Positions 3,128 through 63,307 of a stretch of 64,000 bases of DNA are shown piece after piece (within the stretch, counting starts at the first letter, position 1; the number at the start of each line of letters is the position of its first letter). This DNA is from Candidatus Yonathbacteria bacterium RIFCSPLOWO2_01_FULL_47_33b (GTDB taxonomy: Bacteria; Patescibacteriota; Minisyncoccia; Phycocordibacterales; UBA1550). The DNA lies in assembly GCA_001823575.1 (NCBI GenBank), contig MHUW01000016.1:2099-66098 (forward strand). The letters run 5' to 3'. The notes beneath the pieces were generated by a model, which was not told the DNA's origin, did not search any database, and worked only from the letters and a program-made list of their open reading frames with translations. The position numbers and the translations under genes are program-made.

Positions 3128-3156
3128 AAAATAAGATAAATAACGAATGAGCAGCC

Positions 3157-4221: not shown

Positions 4222-4263
4222 ATACTGATATACTACACGATTTTTTCTGGTTTTGCGAGGCTA

Positions 4264-5535
4264 TTAATTTAAGACTAAAACCTTCTTGAATTCCTCGCCA
4301 TCCTTGGCTGGCCCAATAAGGGCGAGGTTGAGATTCTTTTCGGTAAATATTTTGCGTGCCATCATGCGAATATCCTCCGCGGTTACCGCGCGAATGAGGC
4401 GCTCTTTTTCTTTCGGCGTACGAATATCGCGACGCATAACCTCTTGTATGCCATAATACTCAGCAAGGTCGTCCGACGACTCAAGGCCAAGATACATCAT
4501 GCCTACGAGGTGTTCTTTTACTTTAGCGATTTCTTCGTCCGACACAAGCTCATGTTTGAGTGTTTCAAATTCTACAAGAACCGCCTGAAGCACCTCCTCC
4601 ATACGTGCATTAGCAACTCCCGCTGAAACTGAAAAGTAGCCATGGTCAGTAAACGCCGTGTTTCGTGCGTTCACATAGTATCCTACCCCCATCTCATCAC
4701 GGAGCTTGCGGAAAAGGCGCGAGGACATACCACTGCCGAGGATACCACTGAGCACTGAAAGTATGGGGTTGCGCTCGTCGTAAATCGGGAATGTGCGCAC
4801 GCCGAGAATAAAGTGTGTCTGATCGGTCTCTTTGTGTACTGCCGCAATTGCCGGCGCTACCTGCTTATCTATCGTTTTTTTCTTGCCGCCTTTCTTCCCT
4901 TCAGTGACACCTTTAAATTTTTTAGCGATATCTTTGAATGCTTGTGCGGCATCGATGTTGCCGGTCACGATAACCGTTGTCGCCAGTGCGATGTAGTGCG
5001 CTTTGCGGTAGGCAAGAAAATCCTTGCGCGTCATTGCGCGGACCACCTCGCGCTCCCCCGCTATCGGCCACCCCGCTGGTTGGTCGCCATAGAGAAGCGT
5101 CATCCATACCTCGTGTACTTTGCGCATAGGGAGATCGTCGTACATATTGATCTCATCCACAATCACGCCTTTTTCTTTTTCGATCTCATCATCCTTAAAA
5201 AGCGGATTGAGGTAGAGGTCAGCAATGACATCGAGGAGCTTCGGAAAATCGGCTGCTTTGCCTTTTGCGTAGTAGCCGGTGTATTCCTGCCCGGTAAAGG
5301 CATTGTATTCACAACCGAGTCCGTCGAGCTCTTTGGAGAGGTCGCTCGTGTTCGGGCGGTTGGTCGTCCCCTTGAAACACATATGTTCGAGGAAGTGCGA
5401 GAGGCCGTTCTTTGCCTTCGTCTCATATTTTGAACCCGTCTCAACGAGTACCAACACGGTTACGGTCGGATTGTCCGCCATCGGCACCGTAATCATACGC
5501 ATGCCATTGGGTAATGTTTTTTTCTTGAATTTCAT
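4264..5535 (-). CDS. M16 family zinc peptidase (insulinase/pitrilysin-like)
   Basis: Inverted zinc-binding motif HFLEH (SHFLEHMCFKGT) near the N-terminus. About 420 aa. Start chosen at MKFKKKTLPNG. Confidence 0.8.
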   Translation of the reverse strand: MKFKKKTLPNGMRMITVPMADNPTVTVLVLVETGSKYETKAKNGLSHFLEHMCFKGTTNRPNTSDLSKELDGLGCEYNAFTGQEYTGYYAKGKAADFPKLLDVIADLYLNPLFKDDEIEKEKGVIVDEINMYDDLPMRKVHEVWMTLLYGDQPAGWPIAGEREVVRAMTRKDFLAYRKAHYIALATTVIVTGNIDAAQAFKDIAKKFKGVTEGKKGGKKKTIDKQVAPAIAAVHKETDQTHFILGVRTFPIYDERNPILSVLSGILGSGMSSRLFRKLRDEMGVGYYVNARNTAFTDHGYFSVSAGVANARMEEVLQAVLVEFETLKHELVSDEEIAKVKEHLVGMMYLGLESSDDLAEYYGIQEVMRRDIRTPKEKERLIRAVTAEDIRMMARKIFTEKNLNLALIGPAKDGEEFKKVLVLN

Positions 5536-5584
5536 ATGTTGGCAGTGTAGCACAAACCCCTCCCTATAAACAAAATCTTAATCG

Positions 5585-5618
5585 TCATGCAAAACAAGTC
5601 ATGACTTGTTTTGCATGA
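5585..5618. terminator. 34-nt perfect palindrome (tcatgcaaaacaagtca|tgacttgttttgcatga)
   Basis: Read directly. Intergenic, between the M16 peptidase start and the next gene stop. Confidence 0.4.
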
Positions 5619-5635
5619 CAGTAGGGCAAAAGAAA

Positions 5636-5660
5636 AACGGCTCAAAAAACTGAGCCGTTC
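5636..5660 (-). terminator. Hairpin aacggctca-aaaaa-ctgagccgtt overlapping the stop of the 5659..6021 gene
   Basis: Inverted repeat with A/T-rich flanks. Shares the sequence gaaaaacggctc with the hairpin at 6087-6111. Confidence 0.5.
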
Positions 5661-6021
5661 AAGGTGGGAGTGCGATCTTTTCAATCAGAACTCCCTGGGT
5701 AAGCATCACGTAAAGCCCATGAACCTCTTCAACATCCATCGACTTAAGGTCGACAAAAACATCGAGATATCCTCCGGGAATCACCGGAACATTCCCGCCA
5801 TTTAAAGAGGCGAGCCGACGTATGTGTCCACAATCGTCCCTTCCCCAATAACCATCGAGAAGTGCTGAGATCCTTATGCCGAGATCAAGACGTGCAAGGA
5901 CCATGGGGTACGTGTGCAAATTCTGAGCGCCGAAATGTATTGCGTGCTTGACCTCAATACGAAGAGGTGTTCCTGGAGGAATATCCAGGAACGGCAGTCC
6001 GTCAAGACAGATGATGTTCAT
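5659..6021 (-). CDS. Hypothetical protein (120 aa)
   Basis: Clean ORF between two terminator hairpins. No family recognised by eye. Confidence 0.4.
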   Translation of the reverse strand: MNIICLDGLPFLDIPPGTPLRIEVKHAIHFGAQNLHTYPMVLARLDLGIRISALLDGYWGRDDCGHIRRLASLNGGNVPVIPGGYLDVFVDLKSMDVEEVHGLYVMLTQGVLIEKIALPP

Positions 6022-6086
6022 TACGTTCTCCTAAAAAGTTGTCTTCCCCCACCTTAGCGTCTTTTGCAGGGTGTGTCAAAAAGAAA

Positions 6087-6111
6087 AACGGCTCGAGAGT
6101 ATCGAGCCGTT
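6087..6111 (-). terminator. Hairpin aacggctcga-gagta-tcgagccgtt followed by a T-run
   Basis: 10-bp perfect stem, 26 nt downstream of the 6137..6523 gene stop. Confidence 0.55.
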
Positions 6112-6136
6112 TTGAGAGACAGAATCCGCTAGGGTT

Positions 6137-6511
6137 TTATTTGGGAACAAAGAACCGGTCGTTGCCGCTCCCTTGGACGGAGAAGTGAACGAAGGAGCCT
6201 GCTGACCCAGAGCTCCCACACATGAGGACGCAACCATTCTGGTCACGCAGAATAGCAACGGAGCTCTGATTATTGAATTTCGCAACATCCACCACCTTGT
6301 AAATCTCACGCGGGAGTTCGTTTTCAGGAATGGCGCGACCAAGCCACGTTTGCCTTCCCTCCTCTTTGCCAAACTGGACAGCAGCCGAAAGCGTAGGGAA
6401 ACCGAAGATTACGGCGGGAATCAGCAGGAGCCATGTTTTTGAATAAATTGCAAGAACAGCCACTAGCAAACTCACTGCAAACAGGCACCCTGCCAGAAAA
6501 AGCTTATTCAT
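6137..6511 (-). CDS. Hypothetical small membrane-anchored/secreted protein
   Basis: N-terminal hydrophobic segment (MNKLFLAGCLFAVSLLVAVLAIY). Start uncertain (6511 or 6523). Confidence 0.4.
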   Translation of the reverse strand: MNKLFLAGCLFAVSLLVAVLAIYSKTWLLLIPAVIFGFPTLSAAVQFGKEEGRQTWLGRAIPENELPREIYKVVDVAKFNNQSSVAILRDQNGCVLMCGSSGSAGSFVHFSVQGSGNDRFFVPK

Positions 6512-6564
6512 ACATACCTCCAAGAGTTATTAAAAGACCAAAGAATCCAAACCTCTAAAACCTA

Positions 6565-7872
6565 CTAAAGTATAGCAGTTTTTAGGTAATTTGTCAATTC
6601 GCTGACGGGGAGGCGCTGTTGCGTGCCGGTGTCGCGGTCGCGGACCGTAACGGTGTCCAAAAGCTCGGGGTTCTCACCCAGCGTGTCGAAGTCGATGACG
6701 ATACAGAATGGCGTGCCAATCTCGTCCTGGCGGCGGTAGCGCTTGCCGACGTTGCCGTTGTCATCCCACATTATTTGCGGGACCTCTTGCTTGAGCATTG
6801 CGTACACGGCGCGTGCTTTTTCGACGAGCTCGGGCTTGTTCTTGAGGAGGGGCGAGACCGCAGCTTTAATTGGTGCAACGCGGGGATGAAGTTTTAGATA
6901 GGTACGCGTTTCGCCTCCCATTTCGTCCTCGGTATATGCCGAAAGAAGTACGGCGAGGAGGGTACGGTCAACACCAAACGACGGCTCGATGACGTGTGGC
7001 ACGGTACGCTCCCCTGTCGCTTCCTCGAAGTACGAGAGGTCAACTTTGCTTGCCTCGGCGTGGCGTGAGAGGTCAAAGTTCGTGCGGTATGCAAGACCAT
7101 ACAACTCTTTCTGTCCAAATGGATAATCAAATTCGAAATCAATAGTACGCTTGGAATAATGCGCGAGATCCTCGGGTGCAATCTCTACCTCATGCGTGCG
7201 AGCGCGGTCAATACCGACGAGCTCAAGCCATGCATTCATTGCCACGCGCCATTCTTCGAACGCACGCTGCCAATCATTTTCTTTTACAAAATATTCAATC
7301 TCCATCTGCTCGAGCTCGCGCAGGCGAAAGATAAAGTCACGCGGCGTGATTTCGTTACGAAAGGCTTTACCAATCTGCCCGAGACCAAACGGGAGCTTGG
7401 GATGGAACGAGTCCACCACATTTTTAAAATTAACAAACATCCCCTGCGCCGTCTCGGGGCGAAGGTATGAGGTCGCCGACGAGTCCTCCGTCGCGCCAAC
7501 TTTGGTCGAGAGCATCATATTGAACTGACGCTCGGGTCCTAAAGCACCACCACACTCAGGACACTTTGTTTTATCCTCAAGATGGTCGGAACGGAAACGA
7601 CGCTTGCATTTAGTGCATTCAACGAGAGGATCGGCAAAGCCGGCAACGTGTCCGGTTGTCTCCCATACACGAGCATTCATGAGGATTGCCGCATCCATAC
7701 CATACATATCATCGCGGCCATCCACAAACATCCTCCACCAGAGGTTTTTAATATTGTTTTTGAGCGCAATACCAAGAGGGCCGTAGTCGTAGGTGCCGGC
7801 GAGACCACCGTAAATCTCGGAGCCTTGATAAATAAAGCCGCGTCGCTTGGCGAGCGAGATGAGCTTTTCCAT
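6565..7872 (-). CDS. glyS: Glycyl-tRNA synthetase, class II homodimeric (archaeal/eukaryotic-type)
   Basis: MEKLISLAKRRGFIYQGSEIYGGLAGTYDYGPLG is a canonical GlyRS N-terminus. Class II motifs follow. Start trimmed to MEKLIS; upstream M codons at 7893 and 7995 are possible alternative starts. Confidence 0.85.
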   Translation of the reverse strand: MEKLISLAKRRGFIYQGSEIYGGLAGTYDYGPLGIALKNNIKNLWWRMFVDGRDDMYGMDAAILMNARVWETTGHVAGFADPLVECTKCKRRFRSDHLEDKTKCPECGGALGPERQFNMMLSTKVGATEDSSATSYLRPETAQGMFVNFKNVVDSFHPKLPFGLGQIGKAFRNEITPRDFIFRLRELEQMEIEYFVKENDWQRAFEEWRVAMNAWLELVGIDRARTHEVEIAPEDLAHYSKRTIDFEFDYPFGQKELYGLAYRTNFDLSRHAEASKVDLSYFEEATGERTVPHVIEPSFGVDRTLLAVLLSAYTEDEMGGETRTYLKLHPRVAPIKAAVSPLLKNKPELVEKARAVYAMLKQEVPQIMWDDNGNVGKRYRRQDEIGTPFCIVIDFDTLGENPELLDTVTVRDRDTGTQQRLPVSELTNYLKTAIL

Positions 7873-7892
7873 CGTTTCTGGAGGGTAATTCA

Positions 7893-7980
7893 TACAAGTC
7901 TTAAAGTCAAAAGTCTTAAAGTCAAAAGCTGGTGCAAATGCATTTACTTTATAGACTTTAGACTTTTTAACTTTTAGACT
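7893..7980. promoter_or_regulatory. Quasi-palindromic 88-bp intergenic element containing a perfect 15-bp tandem repeat (gtcttaaagtcaaaa x2 at 7898-7927) and an opposed tagact-rich arm
   Basis: Read directly. The central aaatgcattt palindrome is flanked by arms that are approximate reverse complements. Sits in the glyS upstream region. Confidence 0.35.
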
Positions 7981-7981
7981 G

Positions 7982-9889
7982 CTATTGTACCACAACCCCT
8001 TGATTTTGGCTAAACTGTGGATCCGAAGAGAGGTTCGTTGTTACGGGAACCTTGCGGTCGCTCAGATTTGTTTTAGTAAATTCATCAACAGCAGTCAATA
8101 CACTTTCTCCGGTAAGAAATGGCGCCTTGCGGAGTTGGCTCAAGCTTGGCAAAAACGAGATTTGGAACGCAGCCTCACGTGTCCCCCCTGCGGGGATGCG
8201 CCCCACATTCCAAGAGACTTCCGAGTTCGTGGCGTTCCAGACCATGTCCTCCCCTGCAGGGGAAATATTTCCCAACCACTTCACATAGACAGGCAAGGTT
8301 GTCTTCACGATTGCGTTGGAAACATTATTTGATCCATTTCGTACAACCCACTTAACAGTGTAGCTCGTCTCAACATCTACGAGAGGAGGGAGTGCTCCGG
8401 TGTTTTTGAAGGGTCCAGCATAATAGAGAGACTGAGCGGCAAGACGAATATCCGTATCAAACTTAACCTTGCGAGATGCGAAGGTGGACACCGTCTCGGG
8501 AGACGCAGTGTTTGAAGTGCGGGCTCGTGCACGTACCTCAAACACAATCTGTGGGTTCTTGGTTGTGCGCACGGCATCCACCCCAAGAGGGACGGGCGAA
8601 AAACTAAAACTTATCGTACCGCGTTCACCAGGCTCGATACTCCCAAGCTCTGGTTTTGTTGTCTTATTCCACACGATTGAGTTATCGAGGGAACGATAGA
8701 AGCCACTGCCATCAGAGTAGACCGAATACTTATTCAACGCATCGCCCTTGAGCGCAATCTCTATAACCGTATCTACAATAGGTGTTGGGCTGTTGCTTTT
8801 CCAAGTAATATCCACGCGGACCCCCCTACCCAGAGGCGCTGCGTACTCAGCAGAACGATCGCCGTTTATAGAAATATCAAGAGCCAAAAATGGTTTAGTG
8901 AGGGTGAGTGTCTCGGTGACAGAATTATATGCCACACCTACGCGACGCTCGTCCTTGAGGTCGGGGGTACCGACCAACACTCTGACCACTTTTTCTTCAT
9001 GTTCCTGCCCTTCAATAATACCTAAAACCTTTATGGTGCGTTTTTCTTGGGGGGCAAGGGTTCCGATATTCCATACGTTGTTCCCTTGCGCGGGAGCAAT
9101 GTCGGCACTTTGAAAAGTGAAGCCGAGTGGGTACGAAACTTCGAGAAGAAGGCCTTGGAGGGAGTCTTTACTATTTGACTCAACCACAATCGCAAGCTCA
9201 ACTTCCTGTCCTGAAGATATTTCTTTTGCAATATCAAGCTTTACATTCACGGGCGAAGCTGAGACACGCAGAGAGTAGGCTGATGATTTTTTAAGGGTCG
9301 CATTTGAGCCCGTCATGCGGTACTCCAAAACAATACTTACTTCTCGTTCTGCGTTTTCCTCACCATACAAAATCGTATTGATACTCTCAGTTACCGACTG
9401 TCCAGGCTGGATTACGCCAAGTTCTTTTGAGATACGTGGTAGCTCAGCCTTATCGGTTGCGGCATAAAACCCTGAAGGATATTCCAAAAATAATGTTGCT
9501 GCTTCAATGGCGACCTTGTTTTCATTGGTTATCGTAATCTTACTCTCAAAAGGCTCCCCGCCAGCAACGGCGAGAGGGGCAACTGTTTCTATCTTTATAT
9601 TCTCACCCGAAATAATATTCGAGCCACGCCACCACACAAGAGCCGCAACGACTGCTGCGAACACAAAGAACCCTAAGGAAATATAGACGATTTTTTTTAT
9701 CATAGTATGACGAGCCTTTGCACGCTCCTGCTCGTGTGCAGATGCACGCGCCTCGCTTTCAGCGTCCCACGCGGAAGGAACAACTATTTCTTTTCGCTCA
9801 AGAGTGTCTTCGACCTCATGCGGTTTAAACTCTCTCCCATAGAGCTCTTTTTCAAGCTCCGCAATTTTGCTTTTCATGTCATCTGCCAT
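7982..9889 (-). CDS. Membrane-anchored protein with N-terminal cytoplasmic coiled-coil, one TM helix and a large extracytoplasmic beta-rich repeat region
   Basis: TM segment IVYISLGFFVFAAVVAALVWW after a charged N-terminus. The remainder is T/S/V-rich with repeated beta-domain character. Start set at MADDMKSKIAELE (ATG at 9887-9889). Confidence 0.5.
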   Translation of the reverse strand: MADDMKSKIAELEKELYGREFKPHEVEDTLERKEIVVPSAWDAESEARASAHEQERAKARHTMIKKIVYISLGFFVFAAVVAALVWWRGSNIISGENIKIETVAPLAVAGGEPFESKITITNENKVAIEAATLFLEYPSGFYAATDKAELPRISKELGVIQPGQSVTESINTILYGEENAEREVSIVLEYRMTGSNATLKKSSAYSLRVSASPVNVKLDIAKEISSGQEVELAIVVESNSKDSLQGLLLEVSYPLGFTFQSADIAPAQGNNVWNIGTLAPQEKRTIKVLGIIEGQEHEEKVVRVLVGTPDLKDERRVGVAYNSVTETLTLTKPFLALDISINGDRSAEYAAPLGRGVRVDITWKSNSPTPIVDTVIEIALKGDALNKYSVYSDGSGFYRSLDNSIVWNKTTKPELGSIEPGERGTISFSFSPVPLGVDAVRTTKNPQIVFEVRARARTSNTASPETVSTFASRKVKFDTDIRLAAQSLYYAGPFKNTGALPPLVDVETSYTVKWVVRNGSNNVSNAIVKTTLPVYVKWLGNISPAGEDMVWNATNSEVSWNVGRIPAGGTREAAFQISFLPSLSQLRKAPFLTGESVLTAVDEFTKTNLSDRKVPVTTNLSSDPQFSQNQGVVVQ

Positions 9890-10030
9890 ACTGTTCAGTA
9901 TACCCCCACACTTACTTTTTTCATAGACTATTTTTATCAAAAAATACCTCAAAACAACAACTGCCTAACCTTAGGCGCAAAAGTAAGTGTGGGGGTATAG
10001 CAATATTTTCAACGACAGAGAATACAAAAA

Positions 10031-10618
10031 CTATAACTGAGATGAATGAAGGGCGGCGTTTATTGCGGGGATAGCGCTTGTCCGTATTTTTTCAAAATCG
10101 TTAAGGATTTCTCGTGACCACATTCCTGGCTCAAGGAAACGCTCGTAGGACCCTGGGTCAAGATACCCCAACCACACAAGACTGCGCAGGGTTGCCAGCG
10201 TCTCGAAAGAAAGCGTGAGCTCGTCGGGGATTGCATCCTGCTCTAAAAAACTGAGCGCACCGAGAAGATCCTGAAAAAGCTCATCCTCTCTTCCCTCTCC
10301 GTGAATCAACCGTGAGAGCAGTGCGCACATCCTGGCAAAAAGTTTCAATCGCACGGTGTCGCCCTTTATCCCTGGAAAAAACTTTTCTTCTCCTGCGCTC
10401 GTAATGCGCCAAACTTCTTTGCCGCGTACGAGATCAACATTGATAAGCGAAAAATCCTGCAGCACGTAGCGAAGCTTTGACTCCTCTTTGCGTACCGATT
10501 GCGCCGAAGCACCCACAAGGCCGAGCTCTTCGGTAAAAATCTTATAGAATCGGTTTGACTCACCGATAGGCACACTGCCGAGAATGATTCCGCGGGTGTG
10601 GTAAATATGATGCGCCAT
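10031..10618 (-). CDS. recO: DNA repair protein RecO
   Basis: 195 aa. N-terminal OB-fold pattern (HTRGIILGSVPIGESNRFYKIFTEELGLVGASAQSVRKEESKLR) typical of RecO. Confidence 0.7.
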   Translation of the reverse strand: MAHHIYHTRGIILGSVPIGESNRFYKIFTEELGLVGASAQSVRKEESKLRYVLQDFSLINVDLVRGKEVWRITSAGEEKFFPGIKGDTVRLKLFARMCALLSRLIHGEGREDELFQDLLGALSFLEQDAIPDELTLSFETLATLRSLVWLGYLDPGSYERFLEPGMWSREILNDFEKIRTSAIPAINAALHSSQL

Positions 10619-10622
10619 AAAT

Positions 10623-10660
10623 TAGGAGTTAGCCAATAGCTTCTAAATACTAGTGACTAA
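10623..10660. repeat. Six TA(G/A) triplets phased every 7 nt across the ileS stop/recO start spacer
   Basis: TAG/TAA at 10623, 10630, 10637, 10644, 10651 and 10658. Contains CTATTGGCTA on the minus strand, as in the 1516-1546 spacer. Confidence 0.45.
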
Positions 10661-13600
10661 TAGCGAAGGTAAAGGGTATCCCATCAATATCGGTTCTTTC
10701 ACCCACAACCTCGATAAACACAATATCTTTAAGGAGTGCAGTTTTTTTGAGGTCTGCGCTAAACTCTTCGACAAGCGCGCGCCCTTCGTCGTTCGTCGCG
10801 ACCTCGAGTGTCACCATGTCGGCGGGAGTAAGGCCGGTCTTTTTACGGAGCTCCTGTACGGTGCGCACCAGGTCGCGGAATTGTCCTTCACGTTTGAGCT
10901 CGGGGGTGATAACGATATCGAGAGAAACCTCTTGTTCAGCTGTTTCTGTAAAAATAACTTTTTTAACATTGAGTTCGTCGGTAATAATAGACGACAGTGC
11001 AGAATTAAGGACAACGCCCCGCACGGTGACCGAAGCCAGCGGCTGGCGAACCTTGATTCCCGCCTTGGCGCGCGCCTCAAGGGCAAGTGATACGACACGG
11101 CGCACTTCGGCCATATCGGTAAGTATGAGATTGTCAGACACAGAAAACTCTGGCCATGACTCGAGGTGCACACTTTCTTTGTCACCGCCTGCATGAGCGT
11201 AAAGATGTTCCGCAAGGAATGGCATCACGGGTGCGAGTAGTTTTGAAAATTCACGAAGCACGGTGCGTGTCGTTGCAATAGCATTTGCGCGATCATCAGC
11301 ATCGTCCGACTTGAAACGGTCGCGCGAACGGCGGATGTACCACGTTGAAAGATCATCAACAAAGAGGCCTATGGGCTTTGCGGCGCGGTCGAGCTCGTAG
11401 GTATCGAACGAACGCGTCATTTCATTTCCTAGTTCTGCAAGGCGTGCAAAAATCCATTGATCGAGAGGGCTATTACTCTTCCCTTCTTTGCTTTGCGCGG
11501 ATTCTTCGGGATACATTTCGTAAAATGAAAGTACGTTCATTAGTCGCACGATAATCTTTTTTACCACCTCATCAACGCCACGCTCAGAAAATGCCAGATC
11601 CTCGGCGTGCACAATGGGTGACGCAAGCATATAGTACCGCACCGCATCCGCACCATATTTATTCAAAACCTCAATAGGGTCGGGATAGTTCTTGAGTTTC
11701 TTGGACATCTTTTGTCCGTCCTCAGCAAGCACCATGCCGTTCACGATGACGTTTTTAAACGGTGATTTATCAAAGAGCCCCACCGACAAAACGAGCATAT
11801 TATAAAACCATCCACGCGTTTGGTCCACACCCTCGGCGATAAAATCTGCGGGAAAATTCTTTTCAAAAAGTTCTTTGTTTTCAAACGGATAATGAAACTG
11901 CGCGTACGGCATTGACCCCGACTCAAACCAACAGTCAAACACGTAGGGCGTACGCGACATCGTGCCACCGCACGGGCACGAAACAACCACCTTATCGATA
12001 TATGGCCTATGAAGGTCAAATTCAAAATCAGCATTGTGGGGAAACGGCGCAAAAGGAAGCTCGCGCACTTCGCCGGTTAGCAAAAAATCATCTCTGTTTT
12101 CTTTGAGCAATACCGCTTGGTTAACCGTTGCGCCCGCTGTTCCCGCTACCAACATCCACGCGGGGTACTCGTGGGTAACAATAAGTATGGTTTTCCCCGC
12201 ATAGCGCGCTTCGAGTTCCTCGAGAAATGGCATCACCCGGAGCTTTACATCAAGGAGGCACTCTCCTCCGTCGGGACGTTTAGTAAGCTTTTCTTTAATA
12301 GAAGAAAAATTGCCACGATATTCCTCGATAGGTCGTCCATCAAAAATACCCGTGTCGATTTCCTTGATGCGTTCGTCAACAACGATCTGTCGGGTATCGT
12401 AGCCAATAGCAGCAGCAACAATCTCGGCGGTCTCTTTGGTGCGCACAAAGGGCGACGTAACAATGAGGTCGATACGCTCTCCTGTAAGTTTCTTACCTGA
12501 CTCTTCTGCAGAGACGCGACCTTTTTCGGTAAGCGAAAATTCTGCGTTCGTCTCGAGTTTTGAACTTACCACGCCACGTGCATTACTTTGTGCTTCCCCG
12601 TGACGCATTACGAGATAGCGATTACCTGACTTTTTTGTTTTTTCCGCAAGCTCGGCGCGTGAGCCAAACACCTCGCGTTTTTCGCATGAGCTGCAGTGCC
12701 ATACAGGAAGTGGTGCTCCCCAATAGCGTGAGCGTGAGATAGCCCAGTCGCGTGCATTCTCAAGCCACTTACCAAAACGGCCATCACGCATATTCTCGGG
12801 CACCCATGATGTTTTCGCATTTTCTGAAAGAAGTTTTTCTTTGAGTTCGGGCGCGCGCACAAACCACGAACCAGCGGCGTAGTTCAAAAGCGGTGTATCA
12901 CAGCGCCAACAATGAGGGTATGAGTGAATGATTTTTTCTTTTGAAAAAAGTGCGCCCATCCCTGCGAGATGTTTAATGATGAGAATATCGGTTGCTTGAT
13001 GGTCCCCTTTTGGCTTGACGGCGATACCGGCAAAGTCCCGCACTTCGGACTTCATGAGTCCGTCCATACCCACGTGCTGCACAAAAGGAAGCTTCTCGCG
13101 CGTTCCGAGTGCCATATCATCCTCGCCAAAAGCAGGCGCAATATGCACGATACCCGTACCGCTCTCCATCGTTACAAACGACGCGCCATACACCTTCCAA
13201 CCGTTCTCGCGGTGAGCAAGGGCGCCCTGTGACGCGTAATAATCAAAAAGTGGTTTATAGGAGCGACCAGCAACATCAGCGCCGCGCATTGTTTTTATGA
13301 TGCGATGTTCTTTTCCTTCAAATACTTTTTCTACGCGCGCGTTTGCAAGAATATAGCGCTCATCGTTAAGAGCAACTTCTGCGTACTCCTCATCGGGGTT
13401 CACCGCGAGAGCAACGTTGCCGGGCAGAGTCCACGGCGTTGTCGTCCACGCAAGGAGGTAAGTATGTGGCTCATCGGCAAGTGCAAATTTTACGGTCACC
13501 GAGATATCCGTGATATCCTTGTAGCCCTCGGACACTTCATTATTTGAAAGTGTCGTCTCGCAACGCGGGCAAATGTGCATGGGTTTGAACCCTTGATACA

Positions 13601-14111
13601 CGAGCCCTTTATCATGGAGCGTCTTGAACGCCCACCAAATTGACTCGGTATAGTTCGCATCCATCGTGCTGTACGCGTGTTCCATATCGATCCATCGCCC
13701 AAGGCGCGGTATCATTTTTTTCCACTCAGCATCATAACGAAGCACTGACGCACGCGCTGCTTCGTTGAAATTTCCGATACCATAGTCCTCAATATCTTTC
13801 TTGTGCGCAAGACCAAGCTCGGCCTCGATCAAGTTCTCAATCGGCAATCCATGACAATCCCAGCCCCATACGCGGCGTACGTAACGCCCATTCATCGTCT
13901 GATAGCGTGGAATAGTGTCCTTGATCGTGCTGGCGAGTAAGTGCCCATAGTGCGGGAGTCCTGTTGCAAAAGGTGGCCCGTCATAAAAGACAAATTCCTC
14001 CCCGCCCTTTGTTTGTGCAAGAGACTTCTCAAAAACCCCCTGCGATTGCCATGCCGCCAGGGTTTCCTCTTCGCGCTTCGCGATATCAGACTTTTTCTCT
14101 AGTTCGTCCAT
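10650..14111 (-). CDS. ileS: Isoleucyl-tRNA synthetase (type 2/eukaryote-like) carrying an internal histidine-phosphatase (PGAM-like) domain
   Basis: 1153 aa. HYGHLL (HIGH) and KMSKKLKNYPDP (KMSKS) motifs. CP1 editing domain. Conserved FDCWFESGSMPYAQFHYPFEN...DQTRGWFY block. Inserted RHGEAQSNARG...SPFVRTKETAEI...LIVTHEY domain at about aa 497-685. Confidence 0.9.
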   Translation of the reverse strand: MDELEKKSDIAKREEETLAAWQSQGVFEKSLAQTKGGEEFVFYDGPPFATGLPHYGHLLASTIKDTIPRYQTMNGRYVRRVWGWDCHGLPIENLIEAELGLAHKKDIEDYGIGNFNEAARASVLRYDAEWKKMIPRLGRWIDMEHAYSTMDANYTESIWWAFKTLHDKGLVYQGFKPMHICPRCETTLSNNEVSEGYKDITDISVTVKFALADEPHTYLLAWTTTPWTLPGNVALAVNPDEEYAEVALNDERYILANARVEKVFEGKEHRIIKTMRGADVAGRSYKPLFDYYASQGALAHRENGWKVYGASFVTMESGTGIVHIAPAFGEDDMALGTREKLPFVQHVGMDGLMKSEVRDFAGIAVKPKGDHQATDILIIKHLAGMGALFSKEKIIHSYPHCWRCDTPLLNYAAGSWFVRAPELKEKLLSENAKTSWVPENMRDGRFGKWLENARDWAISRSRYWGAPLPVWHCSSCEKREVFGSRAELAEKTKKSGNRYLVMRHGEAQSNARGVVSSKLETNAEFSLTEKGRVSAEESGKKLTGERIDLIVTSPFVRTKETAEIVAAAIGYDTRQIVVDERIKEIDTGIFDGRPIEEYRGNFSSIKEKLTKRPDGGECLLDVKLRVMPFLEELEARYAGKTILIVTHEYPAWMLVAGTAGATVNQAVLLKENRDDFLLTGEVRELPFAPFPHNADFEFDLHRPYIDKVVVSCPCGGTMSRTPYVFDCWFESGSMPYAQFHYPFENKELFEKNFPADFIAEGVDQTRGWFYNMLVLSVGLFDKSPFKNVIVNGMVLAEDGQKMSKKLKNYPDPIEVLNKYGADAVRYYMLASPIVHAEDLAFSERGVDEVVKKIIVRLMNVLSFYEMYPEESAQSKEGKSNSPLDQWIFARLAELGNEMTRSFDTYELDRAAKPIGLFVDDLSTWYIRRSRDRFKSDDADDRANAIATTRTVLREFSKLLAPVMPFLAEHLYAHAGGDKESVHLESWPEFSVSDNLILTDMAEVRRVVSLALEARAKAGIKVRQPLASVTVRGVVLNSALSSIITDELNVKKVIFTETAEQEVSLDIVITPELKREGQFRDLVRTVQELRKKTGLTPADMVTLEVATNDEGRALVEEFSADLKKTALLKDIVFIEVVGERTDIDGIPFTFAISH

Positions 14112-14158
14112 ATTTATTCAGAATAACACAAACAACATTGCTCACCAAAAAATCCCCT

Positions 14159-14206
14159 CCTTTTATCACAGACTCGTAGCTATAGCTACGAGTCTGTGAT
14201 AAAAGG
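14159..14206 (-). terminator. 48-nt perfect palindrome (ccttttatcacagactcgtagcta|tagctacgagtctgtgataaaagg) flanked by CCCC/GGGG
   Basis: Read directly. 17 nt downstream of the argS stop, upstream of the ileS start. Confidence 0.6.
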
Positions 14207-14222
14207 GGTCAATGGATAACCT

Positions 14223-15893
14223 TTACATTCTCTCGGGTGCCGAGATGCCGAGAAGGCTCAATCCGTTCTTCATGGTCTGAGAGACCGCCTTCACGAGAGC
14301 AAGTTTGTAGGGTTCGTCTTCTTTGCCGTCGAGAACTATTGTATTCCCATAGAATGAGTTGAACTCTCGTGCGAGCTCTATCAAGTATGTCGCAATATGA
14401 TGAGGTTCGCGCTCCTCGTTTGCGCGCAGAACGATTTCAGGGAAATGAAGGAGGCGCTTGTGGAGCATGTTTGTTCCCGTGTGTACGCCCAGGGCGTCGA
14501 TTGTTTTACCCCCTGCTTTCTCGAGAAGCGATCGTGTACGCGCGTAGGTGTACTGCAAGTACGGACCAGAATCCCCTTCGAACGAAAGTGACTGCTCAAA
14601 ATCAAAAATAATATCCTTACCCGATGCTTGACGAAGGATAGAGTACTTAATGGCGCCAATGGCAATTTTTTCTGCAAGCTCATCTTGTTCATCCGAAGAG
14701 AACAATTCTGTTGAGATTTTGGTGCGCGCTTTTTCTTTGGTATCAGCGATGAGCGACTCGGCAGTAATAACGTCACCTGTGCGTGAAGACATTTTGCCAG
14801 TCGGCAAGCGAAGCATACCGTGAGAAATATGAATCGTTTTTAAAGCCAAGTCAGGGAAAACTTTTGCCATCGCATCGAGAAGCACTCTAAAGTACGCATT
14901 CACTTCATTGCCTGTGATTACGATAGAAGCATCGTACGGATACGTATCGTATTTTATTTTTGCCAAACCAAGCTCTTTTGCCTCGTATGTAGGTAACCCT
15001 TCGGAGTTAATGAAAACGCGAGTGTGCAACCCTTTTTCTTCATCGCCTTTATATACAATAGCGCCCCCCTCCCCTTGTTCAAAAATTGCAGGATTATCAA
15101 GAACAACTTTTTTTCCAAATTCTCCTGTTTTTGATTCAAAAAAATAGTAATCAAACTTTGTGCCGAGTTTTTTGTAAATCGTTTCAAAGTAGTCGAGGCT
15201 CACCTTAAGTCCATTATTATAAAGTTCGTCGACCTGAGCATCTGAATGCTCGTATATTTTTTTATTAATTTCAATAATTTCTGTTTTTGCTTCAACATTA
15301 TTCTCATACCCTGTCGCTCCTAGGGAATAAGCGATTCCAAGTCTTTGAATAAGCGTTGCGAGATGAGGGGTACCCTCTGAAAGTTTTTTAATCCCCCAAA
15401 TTGTTTTCGCCACATGCATCCCCACATCGCCCTGGTAGCACGCGCGCCTTGTCTCCGCGCCGCTCGCTTTAACGATGCGCGAAATGGACTCGCCGATGGC
15501 GTTCGACATCAAGTGCCCAATGTGAAATTCCTTGAATGGGTTCGGGTCGGTATATTCGACGATAACTTTTTTACCCTCAAGCTTTTTATTTTCACCCCAC
15601 TGTGCCCCTTGCTCTAGGGCGTCCTTGAGTGCCTGTGCAAGATATTCGTCAGAAAGTCTGAAGTTAATAAACCCTGGGCCGGCAATCTCAAGTTCTTTAA
15701 TTTCCTCAGTAGGAGTTTCGAGTATTTTCTCCACCAGTTTTCCTGCGAGTTCTCGTGGTGAAATACCAGCAACTTTTGCGTACGCAAGCGCGACGTTGGT
15801 GGCATAATCCCCATGCGACGAATCCGCGGGGCGCTCAAGCACCACAACGCCCGCCTCGATACCGAGCGCTCCCAACGCCTCCACAACGACCAT
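14223..15893 (-). CDS. argS: Arginyl-tRNA synthetase
   Basis: N-terminal Arg-tRNA-synthetase additional domain, HIGH motif (FHIGHLMSNAIGE), GKMSSRTG (KMSKS-like). The ORF track begins at a GTG at 15938; ATG at 15893 is preferred because an AAGGAG Shine-Dalgarno lies 9 nt upstream. Confidence 0.85.
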   Translation of the reverse strand: MVVVEALGALGIEAGVVVLERPADSSHGDYATNVALAYAKVAGISPRELAGKLVEKILETPTEEIKELEIAGPGFINFRLSDEYLAQALKDALEQGAQWGENKKLEGKKVIVEYTDPNPFKEFHIGHLMSNAIGESISRIVKASGAETRRACYQGDVGMHVAKTIWGIKKLSEGTPHLATLIQRLGIAYSLGATGYENNVEAKTEIIEINKKIYEHSDAQVDELYNNGLKVSLDYFETIYKKLGTKFDYYFFESKTGEFGKKVVLDNPAIFEQGEGGAIVYKGDEEKGLHTRVFINSEGLPTYEAKELGLAKIKYDTYPYDASIVITGNEVNAYFRVLLDAMAKVFPDLALKTIHISHGMLRLPTGKMSSRTGDVITAESLIADTKEKARTKISTELFSSDEQDELAEKIAIGAIKYSILRQASGKDIIFDFEQSLSFEGDSGPYLQYTYARTRSLLEKAGGKTIDALGVHTGTNMLHKRLLHFPEIVLRANEEREPHHIATYLIELAREFNSFYGNTIVLDGKEDEPYKLALVKAVSQTMKNGLSLLGISAPERM

Positions 15894-15932
15894 TTCTAGT
15901 TTCTCCTTCATAACGCTGAGCATAACAAAAAA

Positions 15933-15963
15933 CCCCACAAAATGACAATGTCATTTTGTGGGG
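15933..15963 (-). terminator. 31-nt perfect palindrome ccccacaaaatgaca-a-tgtcattttgtgggg
   Basis: Read directly. Between the tmk stop and the argS start. Near-identical copy at 17147-17177 with compensatory G/C to A/T changes. Confidence 0.6.
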
Positions 15964-15979
15964 TTACTGCATTGCTTCA

Positions 15980-16621
15980 TTACTTCCAGCCACAATGCTC
16001 GCTCACGATTTTGTACACTTCTTCGTGAATCGCCTCGGGAGACCGATCGCCGTCAATCATGATAACATGGTTTGGCAGATCCTCGCGAAGGGACTGGAAT
16101 CCCTTGCGCACCCGCTCATACCACTCGAGGGGCTTTTTATCAAACAGCGACTTGCTGCGACTCGTGTCGGCATCAACGCGCCGCTTTGCCTCTTTTGCCG
16201 GCAGGTCAATAAAAAGATAAAGCGTCGGAGGATGTTTACCAAAAATCATGCTTCGTATCCGCCAGAACTCGTCCTCAAGCTCTGGTGCTTCTTTTGCATA
16301 CACTTGGTATGCCATCGTCGACGAATCACATCGATCAGAAATAACAGGAACTCCTTTCTCAAGGTTTGGTAGCACAACCCTTTCAAACCAATCCGAGCGT
16401 GCTGCCCACATCATAAAAAATTGCGTTCGTGCACTTGCAATGGCACCCTCAGGCGAGCTGAAGAGGTCACGGATTTTTTCACCGAGCGGCGAACCACCTG
16501 GTTCGCGTGTGTCGACAAACTGACGATGTGCGTGAAGTGCACGATCGATCAAAAGTTTAACCTGCGTACCCTTCCCTGAGCCGTCCATGCCGTCAAAAAC
16601 AATAAATGGTGCTTTTTTCAT
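15980..16621 (-). CDS. tmk: Thymidylate kinase
   Basis: P-loop FIVFDGMDGSGKGTQ, 213 aa, dTMP kinase length and motifs. Confidence 0.85.
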   Translation of the reverse strand: MKKAPFIVFDGMDGSGKGTQVKLLIDRALHAHRQFVDTREPGGSPLGEKIRDLFSSPEGAIASARTQFFMMWAARSDWFERVVLPNLEKGVPVISDRCDSSTMAYQVYAKEAPELEDEFWRIRSMIFGKHPPTLYLFIDLPAKEAKRRVDADTSRSKSLFDKKPLEWYERVRKGFQSLREDLPNHVIMIDGDRSPEAIHEEVYKIVSEHCGWK

Positions 16622-59761: not shown

Positions 59762-59948
59762 ACAAAAAGCCCACCACATGAGTAACGACCGAAATCGTTC
59801 ATACAAGTTTCCCTGTATGGCCCGGAAAGACAACCCCATATGATGGGTTTTTTACGTCTTTCCGGGACTTTTTCGCCATGCCACTGATTACTCAAGGGTT
59901 TAGGCTACTTCTTTATTCAGTTGTACTTAAATCCTAACAGTTTTACGG

Positions 59949-63264: not shown

Positions 63265-63307
63265 GAGTTCCACAAACTCTAGTGTTAACCATTACACCAT
63301 AGCCACC
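63235..63307 (-). tRNA. tRNA-His (anticodon GUG) with encoded G-1
   Basis: Hand-folded: G-1; acceptor GTGGCTA/TAGCCAC; D-stem GTGT/ACAC; anticodon stem AGAGT/ACTCT with loop TTGTGGA; T-stem CTGGG/CCCAG with loop TTCAATT; discriminator C. Confidence 0.8.

What the first reader, a model, noticed from the sequence alone, without database searches (positions are those of the whole stretch)
12050..12630. Histidine-phosphatase (PGAM-like) domain inserted inside isoleucyl-tRNA synthetase
The IleRS ORF is about 190 aa longer than type-2 IleRS between the WxCxxC zinc knuckle (PVWHCSSCEKRE) and the conserved DLHRPYID...FDCWFESGSMPYAQ block. The inserted segment carries the three hallmark motifs of the histidine phosphatase/phosphoglycerate-mutase superfamily in the correct order: RHGEAQSNARG (catalytic His), SPFVRTKETAEI, and LIVTHEY (second His). 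It is in frame on both sides, so it is a genuine internal fusion and not an adjacent gene. A phosphatase embedded in an aaRS is unusual. It could act on a nucleotide by-product, on aminoacyl-adenylate, or have a regulatory role.
Basis: partly seen in the sequence, partly recalled or inferred. Interest (0 to 1): 0.7.

Follow-up and report, generated by a model that had tools for sequence, protein, structure and literature searches.

The report
Active phosphatase domain embedded in IleRS
A complete isoleucyl-tRNA synthetase from a Parcubacteria-type (candidate phyla radiation) bacterium carries a catalytically intact histidine-phosphatase domain spliced into one of its surface loops; the same design occurs in hundreds of related species and appears undescribed, so what the phosphatase does for the synthetase is an open, testable question.

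Summary
Window 10650..14111 (- strand) is one uninterrupted 1153-aa type-2 IleRS. A ~200-aa His_Phos_1 domain (Pfam E=2.4e-32) replaces a ~10-residue loop of the CP3 subdomain.

It is not an assembly artefact. At least 154 clusters (50% identity) and at least 485 GTDB species genomes carry a relative. All 80 best genome loci show IleRS-N / phosphatase / IleRS-C in one frame, with argS-ileS-recO synteny. The nearest is Candidatus Yonathbacteria.

The catalytic residues are essentially invariant in 160 domains, and the IleRS motifs are intact, so this is a bifunctional enzyme. The domain is PhoE/PspA/CobC-like, not a phosphoglycerate mutase.

In a sister lineage the same phosphatase family is a separate ~195-aa gene directly upstream of an insert-less ileS (47 of 70 informative loci), usually with overlapping stop and start codons. 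Other lineages carry 2-4 diverged, catalytically intact phosphatase domains at different IleRS loops.

This argues that the phosphatase is a dedicated IleRS partner. Its substrate is unknown. I found no paper describing it. I rate it a new variant of a known kind.

The parts
10650..14111 (-). Complete ileS ORF, 1153 aa: type-2 IleRS with an embedded phosphatase
   Evidence: Single ORF. TIGR00392 885.8 bits. Pfam tRNA-synt_1 + His_Phos_1 + Anticodon_1 + DUF5915. AF2 model pLDDT 91.2, pTM 0.84. Foldseek TM 0.83 to IleRS2 8c8u.
12702..14111 (-). IleRS N-terminal part (aa 1-470): first half of the Rossmann fold with HYGH (aa 54-57), CP core zinc site (CPRC aa 181-184, CWRC aa 401-404), CP1 editing domain (WTTTPWT aa 222-228) and CP2
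   Evidence: Alignment to 8c8u residues 4-469. Motif positions. Conservation across 44 full-length homologs.
12717..12755 (-). CP2-CP3 linker ARDWAISRSRYWG (aa 453-465). The equivalent yeast segment lines the tRNA 3'-CCA / reveromycin pocket.
   Evidence: for position. PMC7955072 for the role of the homologous segment 453ARDWNVSRNRYWG465.
12684..12701 (-). First half of the CP3 zinc knuckle, WHCSSC (C473, C476)
   Evidence: All four Cys are kept in 32/44 fused homologs and one or fewer in 8/44. The CP3 zinc motif of T. thermophilus IleRS is described in PMC7191050.
12621..12665 (-). CP3 strand GSRAEL plus the basic N-side linker AEKTKKSGN (aa 483-497)
   Evidence: GS..EL is also present in insert-less IleRS. 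N497 is conserved in 121/150 domains and is also present in the stand-alone proteins.
12054..12620 (-). Histidine phosphatase (His_Phos_1, branch 1) domain, aa 498-686
   Evidence: Pfam E=2.4e-32. Family profile against PDB: PhoE 1e-31, PspA 1e-30, CobC 5e-25. Model pLDDT 84-96.
12582..12605 (-). RHGEAQSN: catalytic Arg503, nucleophile His504 and Asn510
   Evidence: R503 and H504 160/160, N510 143/160.
12426..12455 (-). SPFVRTKETA: Ser553 and the phosphate-binding Arg557
   Evidence: S553 and R557 160/160.
12348..12365 (-). KEIDTG: Glu584, the position of the general acid (aligns to PhoE 'REIHLG'). The motif is PhoE-type, not dPGM 'ERHYG'.
   Evidence: E584 is 144 E + 14 D of 160. Alignments to 1ebb and 4ij5.
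12258..12272 (-). DGGEC: conserved Glu617 (the 'GES' motif of the family), followed by Arg625
   Evidence: E617 158/160, R625 154/160.
12165..12185 (-). LIVTHEY: second catalytic His647
   Evidence: H647 159/160.
12018..12056 (-). C-side linker PFAPFPHNADFEF (aa 686-698) returning to CP3
   Evidence: P691 122/141. Linker length is nearly constant: the whole insertion is 195-221 aa in 44 homologs.
11964..12017 (-). DLHRPYID block and the second half of the CP3 zinc knuckle, SCPCGG (C712, C714)
10650..11963 (-). IleRS C-terminal part: second half of the Rossmann fold (FDCWFESGSMPYAQ; KMSKK aa 801-805, nt 11697-11711), anticodon-binding domain and type-2 C-terminal domain (DUF5915)
14223..15938 (-). 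argS, upstream neighbour. Part of the conserved argS-ileS-recO synteny that ties this locus to loci where the phosphatase is a separate gene.
   Evidence: L008 reads argS - stand-alone phosphatase - ileS.
10031..10618 (-). recO-like gene, downstream neighbour (synteny marker)

Best explanation
Shown: this is a bifunctional enzyme. A complete type-2 IleRS, with intact synthetic, editing and anticodon-binding elements, carries an enzymatically competent PhoE/PspA/CobC-class histidine phosphatase. The phosphatase is inserted through two short, length-conserved linkers into the loop of the CP3 subdomain. CP3 begins about 10 residues after the CP2-CP3 linker, which lines the tRNA CCA-end pocket. 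The design is ancient and is maintained by selection in a large Parcubacteria clade.

Inferred (origin): the domain descends from a phosphatase gene that was the immediate, translationally coupled upstream partner of ileS. That arrangement is still present in a sister lineage at the orthologous locus. The gene was then internalised into CP3.

Inferred (mechanism, the committed reading): the phosphatase is a dedicated partner of IleRS that acts locally, at or near the synthetase, on a terminal phosphoryl group. It uses the standard two-step phospho-histidine mechanism: His504 is the nucleophile, Arg503, Arg557 and His647 bind the phosphate, and Glu584 is the acid. On this reading it is not an unrelated metabolic enzyme.

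Candidate substrates, in my order of preference and all untested: a blocked tRNA(Ile) 3' end (2'/3'-phosphate or pyrophosphate on A76); a phosphorylated residue of IleRS itself, such as the KMSKS serine; or the by-products PPi and AMP.

I put about 0.95 on the architecture and on the phosphatase being active, and about 0.5 on the functional coupling to isoleucylation.
For: Architecture.

Activity is under selection. R503, H504, S553 and R557 are 160/160; H647 is 159/160; E617 is 158/160; E584 is 144 E + 14 D. The IleRS motifs are intact in 44 full-length homologs: WTTTPWT 43/44, with KMSKS-type and HXGH/GXHH motifs present.

Spread: 154 clusters at E<=1e-30. At least 485 GTDB species genomes carry a relative, and the 80 best all have the fused form with argS-ileS-recO synteny.

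Rigid mounting: pTM 0.84, domain pLDDT 84-96, and an insertion length of 195-221 aa.

Partner evidence:
- The stand-alone family (436 clusters) lies directly upstream of an insert-less ileS in 47 of 70 informative metagenome loci.
- In 40 of 48 adjacent pairs the stop and start codons overlap by 4 or 8 nt.
- L008 reads argS - phosphatase - ileS.
- Downstream synteny is shared with the window.

Recurrent recruitment: His_Phos domains sit at 3-4 different IleRS loops, with up to 4 per protein. The copies are 21-35% identical to each other and all keep the catalytic residues. One such protein was seen in 6 assemblies, including a 1.06-Mb contig.

Within this window the phosphatase is specific to IleRS. 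MetRS, ArgRS and a class II aaRS have no extra domain, and no other His_Phos is present in the 64 kb.

The site is next to the CCA-pocket linker.
Against: No substrate or activity was tested, and nothing here shows that the phosphatase touches tRNA, IleRS or its products.

The operon adjacency may simply be the source of the fusion (proximity) rather than a sign of shared function. Gene order such as argS-ileS-recO is also conserved here without an obvious functional link.

22 of 70 stand-alone loci lack ileS next door, and P0009 sits beside a ROK kinase and a HAD hydrolase.

The domain has no consistent positive charge: about 0 +/- 6.7 across the family and -4 in the window.

Other enzyme domains (GNAT, a P-loop kinase-like domain, an IS200-like domain) are also found inserted in these IleRSs. 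That fits a merely permissive scaffold.

I could not obtain model coordinates, so the distance and orientation of His504 relative to the synthetic site are unknown.

The NJ tree of the domains is unresolved, so the direction of the fusion is inferred from parsimony only.
Confidence: 0.5

Rival explanations
1. Hitch-hiker. The phosphatase is an independent housekeeping enzyme, for example a broad-specificity sugar-phosphate, nucleotide or phosphoserine phosphatase. It happened to lie next to ileS and was captured into a permissive loop. It is conserved because the cell needs its activity, and IleRS only provides expression and a scaffold.
For: CP3 is a structurally variable, peripheral subdomain. 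Other unrelated enzyme domains (GNAT, P-loop kinase-like, IS200-like) are also inserted in relatives' IleRS. About a third of stand-alone family members are not next to ileS. P0009 neighbours sugar-metabolism genes. The nearest characterised relatives are small-molecule phosphatases. There is no RNA-binding charge signature.
Against: The stop/start overlap with ileS in 40/48 adjacent pairs is typical of stoichiometric partners. Adjacent genes usually fuse end to end, yet no N-terminal fusion was seen; all insertions are internal. Diverged, active phosphatase domains were recruited repeatedly to several different IleRS loops. Other aaRS genes in the window carry no such domain.
Confidence: 0.35
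2. The domain supplies the cell's phosphoglycerate mutase, filling the PGM gap reported for some Parcubacteria clades.
For: Jaffe et al. 2020 (PMC7304191) report PGM missing in several shallow Parcubacteria clades, possibly because it is too divergent to detect. The fold is the PGM superfamily, and small dPGMs such as 1fzt match the profile at 1e-20.
Against: The motif after the general acid is E-[ILV]-[ND]-x-G (PhoE type), not dPGM 'ERHYG'. dPGM structures align only over the N-terminal half of the profile, and the best matches are phosphatases. NCBIfam dPGM models score far below their cut-offs, e.g. 76 against 225.
Confidence: 0.05
3. The domain is a non-catalytic structural or tRNA-binding module, i.e. 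a pseudo-enzyme.
For: Inserted domains in aaRSs often serve RNA binding, and some His_Phos members such as Tfc7 are non-catalytic (own knowledge).
Against: The complete catalytic set is essentially invariant in 160 domains that are only 30-50% identical overall, including the extra copies in multi-domain proteins. There is no positive charge bias.
Confidence: 0.05
4. Artefact: a chimeric assembly, a missed frameshift, or two adjacent genes read as one.
For: None found. Some database relatives are frameshifted or truncated fragments.
Against: The ORF is continuous and composition is uniform. The same in-frame junctions occur in 80/80 independent species genomes and in many metagenomes. Sequence is conserved across both junctions.
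Confidence: 0.01

Closest known systems
Bacterial type-2 (eukaryote-like, mupirocin-resistant) IleRS, e.g. Priestia megaterium IleRS2 (PDB 8c8u) and Thermus thermophilus IleRS (1ile)
   Same: Full-length homology on both sides of the insert (E=1.8e-231). Foldseek TM 0.83. HXGH and KMSKS motifs, CP1 editing motif, anticodon-binding domain and type-2 C-terminal domain. A CP3 zinc knuckle as in T. thermophilus.
   Different: About 200 extra residues forming an enzymatic domain inside CP3, where the solved enzymes have 10-40 residues. No solved IleRS has a domain at this site.
Small histidine phosphatases of branch 1: PhoE (1ebb/1h2e), phosphoserine phosphatase PspA/iPSP1 (4ij5), alpha-ribazole phosphatase CobC (6nru)
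   Same: Full-length profile matches at 1e-31 to 5e-25. Identical catalytic residues (RHG, R, E, H) and a PhoE-type 'E-I-x-x-G' motif.
   Different: Those enzymes are free-standing, whereas this domain is embedded in (or operon-coupled to) IleRS. All NCBIfam equivalog models score below cut-off (PspA 67 against 350; cobC 65 against 163), so substrate specificity cannot be transferred.
NCBIfam NF040702 'isoleucine--tRNA ligase, N-acetyltransferase domain-containing' (ileS_w_GNAT)
   Same: A curated precedent for an IleRS that carries an extra enzymatic domain. A relative found here (P0055) carries both His_Phos and GNAT domains.
   Different: The window protein scores 324 bits against a cut-off of 1999. 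It has no GNAT domain. The GNAT in P0055 sits in another loop (HYPFEN|ADFI). No curated model exists for the phosphatase-bearing form.
Bifunctional RNase H / acid phosphatase (NF005567; M. tuberculosis Rv2228c type)
   Same: This is the best NCBIfam hit of the inserted domain (86.6 bits). It is a CobC-like His_Phos domain covalently joined to a nucleic-acid enzyme, and the reason for that fusion is likewise unclear (own knowledge).
   Different: That is an end-to-end fusion to RNase HI, not an internal insertion in an aaRS. The score is far below the cut-off of 326.
Phosphatase activities attached to tRNA 3'-end enzymes (HD domain of the E. coli CCA-adding enzyme) and reversal of toxin phosphorylation of the translation apparatus (toxSAS CCA pyrophosphorylation; HipA/HipT phosphorylation of the KMSKS serine of GltX/TrpS)
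   Same: Conceptual analogy only: a phosphatase placed where a blocked tRNA 3' end or a phosphorylated synthetase must be restored (own knowledge, not tested here).
   Different: Different folds (HD rather than His_Phos). No evidence here that tRNA or IleRS is the substrate.

Membership tests
Isoleucyl-tRNA synthetase (TIGR00392 ileS; type 2) | Whole-protein score above the curated equivalog cut-off | tested here: met
   885.8 bits against a cut-off of 621.4, in two stretches split by the insert.
Isoleucyl-tRNA synthetase (TIGR00392 ileS; type 2) | Class I signature motifs HXGH and KMSKS | tested here: met
   HYGH at aa 54-57 and KMSKK at aa 801-805.
Isoleucyl-tRNA synthetase (TIGR00392 ileS; type 2) | CP1 editing domain with the Thr-rich motif | tested here: met
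   WTTTPWT at aa 222-228, 43/44 in homologs. Matches to isolated editing-domain structures 1wk8 and 1ue0.
Isoleucyl-tRNA synthetase (TIGR00392 ileS; type 2) | Type-2 C-terminal organisation (no C-terminal zinc-binding domain of IleRS1) | tested here: met
   Pfam DUF5915 at aa 1061-1151. Best structural matches are IleRS2 and yeast IleRS; IleRS1 matches are much weaker.
Isoleucyl-tRNA synthetase (TIGR00392 ileS; type 2) | Isoleucylation and editing activity | not testable with these tools
   Needs biochemistry.
Histidine phosphatase superfamily, branch 1 (Pfam PF00300 His_Phos_1) | Domain score above the gathering threshold | tested here: met
   112.6 bits against 21.7, E=2.4e-32, profile positions 2-165 of 194.
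Histidine phosphatase superfamily, branch 1 (Pfam PF00300 His_Phos_1) | Catalytic core: RHG (Arg + nucleophilic His), second Arg, second His, acidic proton donor | tested here: met
   R503, H504, R557, H647 and E584 are present and essentially invariant in 160 family domains.
Histidine phosphatase superfamily, branch 1 (Pfam PF00300 His_Phos_1) | Phosphatase activity via a phospho-histidine intermediate | not testable with these tools
   Needs an enzyme assay with an H504A control.
Cofactor-dependent phosphoglycerate mutase (dPGM) | dPGM-specific substrate-binding signature ('ERHYG', basic RR pair) and a full-length match to dPGM models | tested here: not met
   The motif is E-I-D-T-G (family E-[ILV]-[ND]-x-G). 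dPGM chains align only to profile positions ~10-115. NCBIfam dPGM models score 34-76 bits against cut-offs of 225-316.
Phosphoserine phosphatase PspA (NF045917) / alpha-ribazole phosphatase CobC (TIGR03162) | Score above the equivalog cut-off | tested here: not met
   PspA 67.1 against 350; cobC 65.2 against 162.9. For stand-alone P0012: cobC 76.1 against 162.9.
IleRS with N-acetyltransferase domain (NF040702 ileS_w_GNAT) | Score above cut-off and presence of a GNAT domain | tested here: not met
   324.1 bits against 1999, and no GNAT Pfam hit in the window protein.

The most novel reading that the evidence does not exclude
The embedded phosphatase is a built-in repair or antidote module for isoleucylation. 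It would remove a phosphate or pyrophosphate that blocks the 3'-terminal A76 of tRNA(Ile), as installed by toxSAS-type toxins or left by nucleases. Alternatively it would remove a phosphate placed on the synthetase's own KMSKS loop by a HipA-like kinase. On this reading the synthetase restores its own substrate or itself before charging. The multi-phosphatase variants (2-4 diverged active domains per IleRS, sometimes with a P-loop kinase-like or GNAT domain) would be expanded versions of this self-defence toolkit.
Probability: 0.12. Interest if true: 0.9.

Novelty: new variant of a known kind. Interest (0 to 1): 0.62.

Why it matters
Aminoacyl-tRNA synthetases are among the most conserved enzymes known. 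Extra catalytic domains inside their cores are rare, and the known ones are almost all editing or RNA-binding modules.

Here an active phosphomonoesterase has been kept inside IleRS across hundreds of species of a major uncultivated bacterial radiation. A clear evolutionary trail runs from operon partner, to an insertion in CP3, to multi-phosphatase versions.

If the phosphatase serves isoleucylation (tRNA-end or synthetase dephosphorylation, or product removal), it would reveal a new layer of quality control or regulation of tRNA charging. It would also give a functional handle on a large unannotated phosphatase family in candidate-phyla-radiation bacteria.

If it is only a passenger, it is still a clean natural example of how minimal genomes weld accessory enzymes into essential genes. 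It also marks CP3 and two other IleRS loops as insertion-tolerant sites useful for engineering. Either outcome can be tested directly with one recombinant protein and one point mutant.

Tried and rejected
- Chimeric assembly or separate gene: rejected (continuous ORF, uniform GC, identical junctions in 80/80 species).
- Phosphoglycerate mutase identity: rejected on motifs and profile coverage.
- Membership in the PspA, CobC, GpmB, SixA or RNase H/acid phosphatase equivalogs: all below cut-off.
- RNA-binding charge signature of the domain: none.
- NJ tree to decide whether the stand-alone or the fused form is ancestral: star-like and unresolved. The stand-alone clade nests among fused sequences without support. 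A remnant of the linkers in the insert-less IleRS: none found.
- The first word-indexed protein search returned only fragments, several with frameshifted tails. The exhaustive search resolved this.
It was redone with 4 close sequences.
The PDB fold search only recovered IleRS bodies, and model coordinates are not exposed. The position of the phosphatase active site relative to the synthetic and editing sites therefore could not be measured.
- Seven literature searches and six paper look-ups found no description of an IleRS-phosphatase fusion, including a 2026 preprint on IleRS domain evolution.
- The P-loop domain of variant P0141 could not be assigned beyond AAA_18/AAA_33/Zeta-toxin-like kinases.
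- No source names are available for the multi-phosphatase variants.
Full report
**1. Observation**

Window 10650..14111 on the minus strand is one uninterrupted ORF of 1153 aa.
- Pfam finds the class I synthetase catalytic domain (PF00133) in two stretches. Between them lies His_Phos_1 (PF00300) at aa 500-665, with E=2.4e-32 and 112.6 bits against a gathering score of 21.7. Anticodon_1 and DUF5915 follow.
- NCBIfam's ileS equivalog TIGR00392 scores 885.8 bits (cut-off 621.4), again in two stretches.
- Against the closest solved enzyme, Priestia megaterium IleRS2 (8c8u), query residue 483 aligns to chain residue 469 and query 691 to chain 479. About 200 residues therefore stand where the reference has about 10.
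The reported interval 12050-12630 corresponds to aa 494-688, essentially the domain itself.
- GC content is continuous across both junctions.

**2. Not an artefact, and not rare**

An exhaustive HMMER search used the insert plus 30-40 flanking IleRS residues on each side. It found 154 representatives of 50%-identity clusters at E<=1e-30. Most of them cover both flanks and the insert. Many are full length (1110-1275 aa) with the insert at about residue 450-530.

A scan of one genome per GTDB species used the phosphatase part only. It found at least 485 genomes with a relative. In all 80 best loci the order IleRS-N / phosphatase / IleRS-C lies in one reading frame, apart from a few obvious frameshifts or contig ends. 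These loci are usually flanked by argS and recO, as in the window.

The nearest relative is Candidatus Yonathbacteria RIFOXYC2_FULL_47_9, at 90% amino-acid identity in the domain and 80.8% nucleotide identity over ileS. It belongs to the Parcubacteria group of Patescibacteria. The other hits are labelled Nomura-, Campbell-, Lloyd-, Taylor-, Wolfe- and Adlerbacteria, Paceibacterota, or generically.

**3. Both enzymes look functional**

In an alignment of 160 phosphatase domains that are only 30-50% identical overall, the catalytic set is essentially invariant:

| Residue | Conservation |
|---|---|
| R503, H504 | 160/160 |
| S553, R557 | 160/160 |
| H647 | 159/160 |
| E617 | 158/160 |
| R625 | 154/160 |
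| N510 | 143/160 |
| E584 | 144 E + 14 D |

In 44 full-length fused proteins the IleRS elements are intact. The editing motif WTTTPWT is present in 43/44, KMSKS-type loops are present, and the first signature motif is HXGH or the known GXHH variant. The length of the insertion is tightly bounded at 195-221 aa.

An AlphaFold2 model built on that alignment is confident: mean pLDDT 91.2 and pTM 0.84. The inserted domain scores 84-96, with dips only in the linkers. Its IleRS body superposes on IleRS2 structures (TM 0.83 to 8c8u), and no solved IleRS carries a domain at this site.

**4. What kind of phosphatase**

A profile of the family matches the whole length of the small phosphatases:
- PhoE (1ebb/1h2e), 1e-31
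- PspA (4ij5), 1e-30
- CobC (6nru), 5e-25

Cofactor-dependent phosphoglycerate mutases align only over the N-terminal half. The motif after the general acid is E-[ILV]-[ND]-x-G, as in PhoE, not the dPGM 'ERHYG'. Every NCBIfam equivalog (PspA, CobC, GpmB, dPGM, SixA, RNase H/acid phosphatase) scores far below its cut-off.

This is therefore an uncharacterised subfamily of branch-1 histidine phosphatases. Its substrate cannot be inferred by homology.

**5. Where it sits**

The insertion lies between the two Cys pairs of a zinc knuckle, WHCSSC ... SCPCGG. This is the CP3 subdomain. PMC7191050 describes CP3 as differing in fold between IleRSs and as zinc-binding in T. thermophilus.

CP3 begins about 10 residues after the CP2-CP3 linker (ARDWAISRSRYWG here). 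In yeast IleRS the homologous linker lines the pocket for the tRNA 3'-CCA end and for reveromycin A (PMC7955072).

I could not obtain coordinates of the model. The orientation of the phosphatase active site relative to the synthetic and editing sites therefore remains unmeasured.

**6. Evolutionary trail**

The closest stand-alone relatives form a large family of ~195-aa proteins: 436 clusters, named Pacebacteria or Paceibacterota where a source gives a name. They share even the linker-proximal features of the inserted domain, 'KNxYFxxRHG' at the start and 'GEVREL' at the end.
- P0012 and P0186 lie directly upstream of a 953-aa IleRS. That IleRS has an intact zinc knuckle and only a 10-residue loop at the insertion site.
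- In a metagenome scan of this family, 47 of 70 informative loci have ileS immediately downstream.
- In 40 of 48 adjacent pairs the ileS start overlaps the phosphatase stop by 4 nt (ATGA) or 8 nt. This is the classical arrangement for translational coupling.
- The genes further downstream (a CLIPPER/DUF11-like protein, a class II synthetase, peptidase M16) match the window's gene order. One contig reads argS - phosphatase - ileS. These are orthologous loci.
- IleRS elsewhere has no insert. The parsimonious history is therefore an operon partner that was later internalised into CP3. A distance tree could not confirm the direction.
- About a third of stand-alone genes are not next to ileS. One more distant relative sits beside a ROK kinase and a HAD hydrolase.

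**7. Recurrent recruitment**

I mapped variant proteins onto the insert-less IleRS. This shows His_Phos domains at several distinct loops:
- the CP3 loop;
- the HYPFEN|ADFI loop (P0140, P0131);
- the junction before the anticodon-binding domain (P0140, P0159, P0169, P0131);
- a CP2-proximal site (P0138).

Some proteins also carry tandem copies, giving up to four domains per protein. Copies within one protein are only 21-35% identical, yet all complete copies keep the catalytic residues. One such protein occurs in six assemblies, including a 1.06-Mb contig.

Relatives also carry other domains: a P-loop kinase-like domain or a GNAT domain in the HYPFEN|ADFI loop, and an IS200-like domain within the editing region. 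NCBIfam already has a model for a GNAT-bearing IleRS but none for the phosphatase form.

**8. Interpretation**

Shown: this is a bifunctional IleRS-phosphatase, ancient and under purifying selection for both activities.

Inferred: the phosphatase is a dedicated partner of IleRS. The support is the translationally coupled gene pair, the internalisation, the repeated independent insertions, and the specificity for IleRS within this window. MetRS, ArgRS and a class II synthetase have no such domain, and there is no other His_Phos in the 64 kb.

I commit to local action at the synthetase on a terminal phosphoryl group, through the standard phospho-histidine mechanism, with confidence about 0.5. 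Candidate substrates come from my own knowledge and are untested:
- a phosphate or pyrophosphate blocking A76 of tRNA(Ile);
- a phosphorylated KMSKS serine;
- PPi or AMP.

Aminoacyl-adenylate is an unlikely substrate for this fold.

The main rival, at about 0.35, is a passenger enzyme captured from the neighbouring gene into a permissive loop. It is supported by the variability of CP3, the other inserted domains, the stand-alone genes away from ileS, and the lack of an RNA-binding charge signature (net charge about 0 +/- 6.7). A mutase role, a pseudo-enzyme and an artefact are each unlikely.

**9. Novelty**

Seven full-text searches and six paper look-ups found no description of this architecture. 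These included papers on synthetases of candidate-phyla-radiation bacteria and a 2026 preprint on IleRS domain evolution. Public annotations call these proteins 'class I tRNA ligase family protein', 'isoleucyl-tRNA synthetase' or 'histidine phosphatase family protein, partial'.

Both component families are well known. The combination, its position inside the catalytic body, its breadth, and the operon-to-insertion trail appear to be new. I rate it a new variant of a known kind, with interest 0.62.

Noticed in passing
window 59784-59906 (-): A full-length match to the Rfam LOOT RNA motif (RF03000, 83.1 bits against a gathering score of 46.4). This is an orphan structured RNA of unknown function.
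   Followed up: no
window 61681-63264 (+) and 63234-63306 (-): A 527-aa large serine recombinase (Resolvase + Recombinase domains) whose ORF end overlaps a tRNA-His(GTG) gene on the opposite strand. This looks like the edge of an integrated element at a tRNA gene.
   Followed up: no
window 25483-28800 (-): A 1105-aa protein with a Peptidase_S74 (endosialidase-chaperone, tail-fibre type) domain and a bacterial surface Ig-like domain. It may be a phage-derived or surface-fibre protein.
   Followed up: no
window 52712-55153 (-): An 813-aa ORF with no Pfam match at E<=1e-5.
   Followed up: no
window 1562-16621: Four synthetase genes lie within 16 kb: MetRS (1562-3127), a class II tRNA-synt_2b/HGTP enzyme (6565-7995), IleRS and ArgRS. 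With them are peptidase M16, a DUF11/CLIPPER-like protein, recO and an ORF I read as thymidylate kinase (15980-16621, from its translation only). Much of this order is shared with the lineage where the phosphatase is a separate gene.
   Followed up: partly
window 43571-45937 (-): A full-length phosphoketolase (XFP_N/XFP/XFP_C, E=8e-185) in this small-genome bacterium.
   Followed up: no
related proteins P0140, P0159, P0131, P0138, P0162, P0169: IleRSs with two to four diverged but catalytically intact His_Phos domains at up to four different insertion sites. P0140 was seen in six assemblies, including a 1.06-Mb contig.
   Followed up: partly
related proteins P0141 and P0055: P0141 carries, besides the phosphatase, a P-loop kinase-like domain (AAA_18/AAA_33/Zeta-toxin-like) in the HYPFEN|ADFI loop. 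P0055 carries an in-frame IS200-like Y1 transposase domain inside the editing region, plus the phosphatase, plus a GNAT acetyltransferase.
   Followed up: partly
alignment A4 (44 full-length fused IleRS), position of window aa 54-57: 18 of 44 have G[ILV]HH instead of HXGH. This is the swapped signature motif reported to confer mupirocin hyper-resistance in IleRS2 (bioRxiv 10.1101/2023.01.31.526100). The window protein has the canonical HYGH.
   Followed up: partly
alignment A4, positions of window C473, C476, C712, C714: The CP3 zinc knuckle that brackets the insertion is complete in 32/44 fused proteins but reduced to one Cys or none in 8/44. The knuckle is therefore dispensable once the domain is in place.
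   Followed up: partly
L001 524-5392; L089 96-1823: In the stand-alone lineage, restriction-modification genes (N6_N4_Mtase, DpnI/DpnII, AIPR, MethyltransfD12) lie just upstream of the phosphatase-ileS pair. The upstream side of the pair is therefore variable.
   Followed up: no
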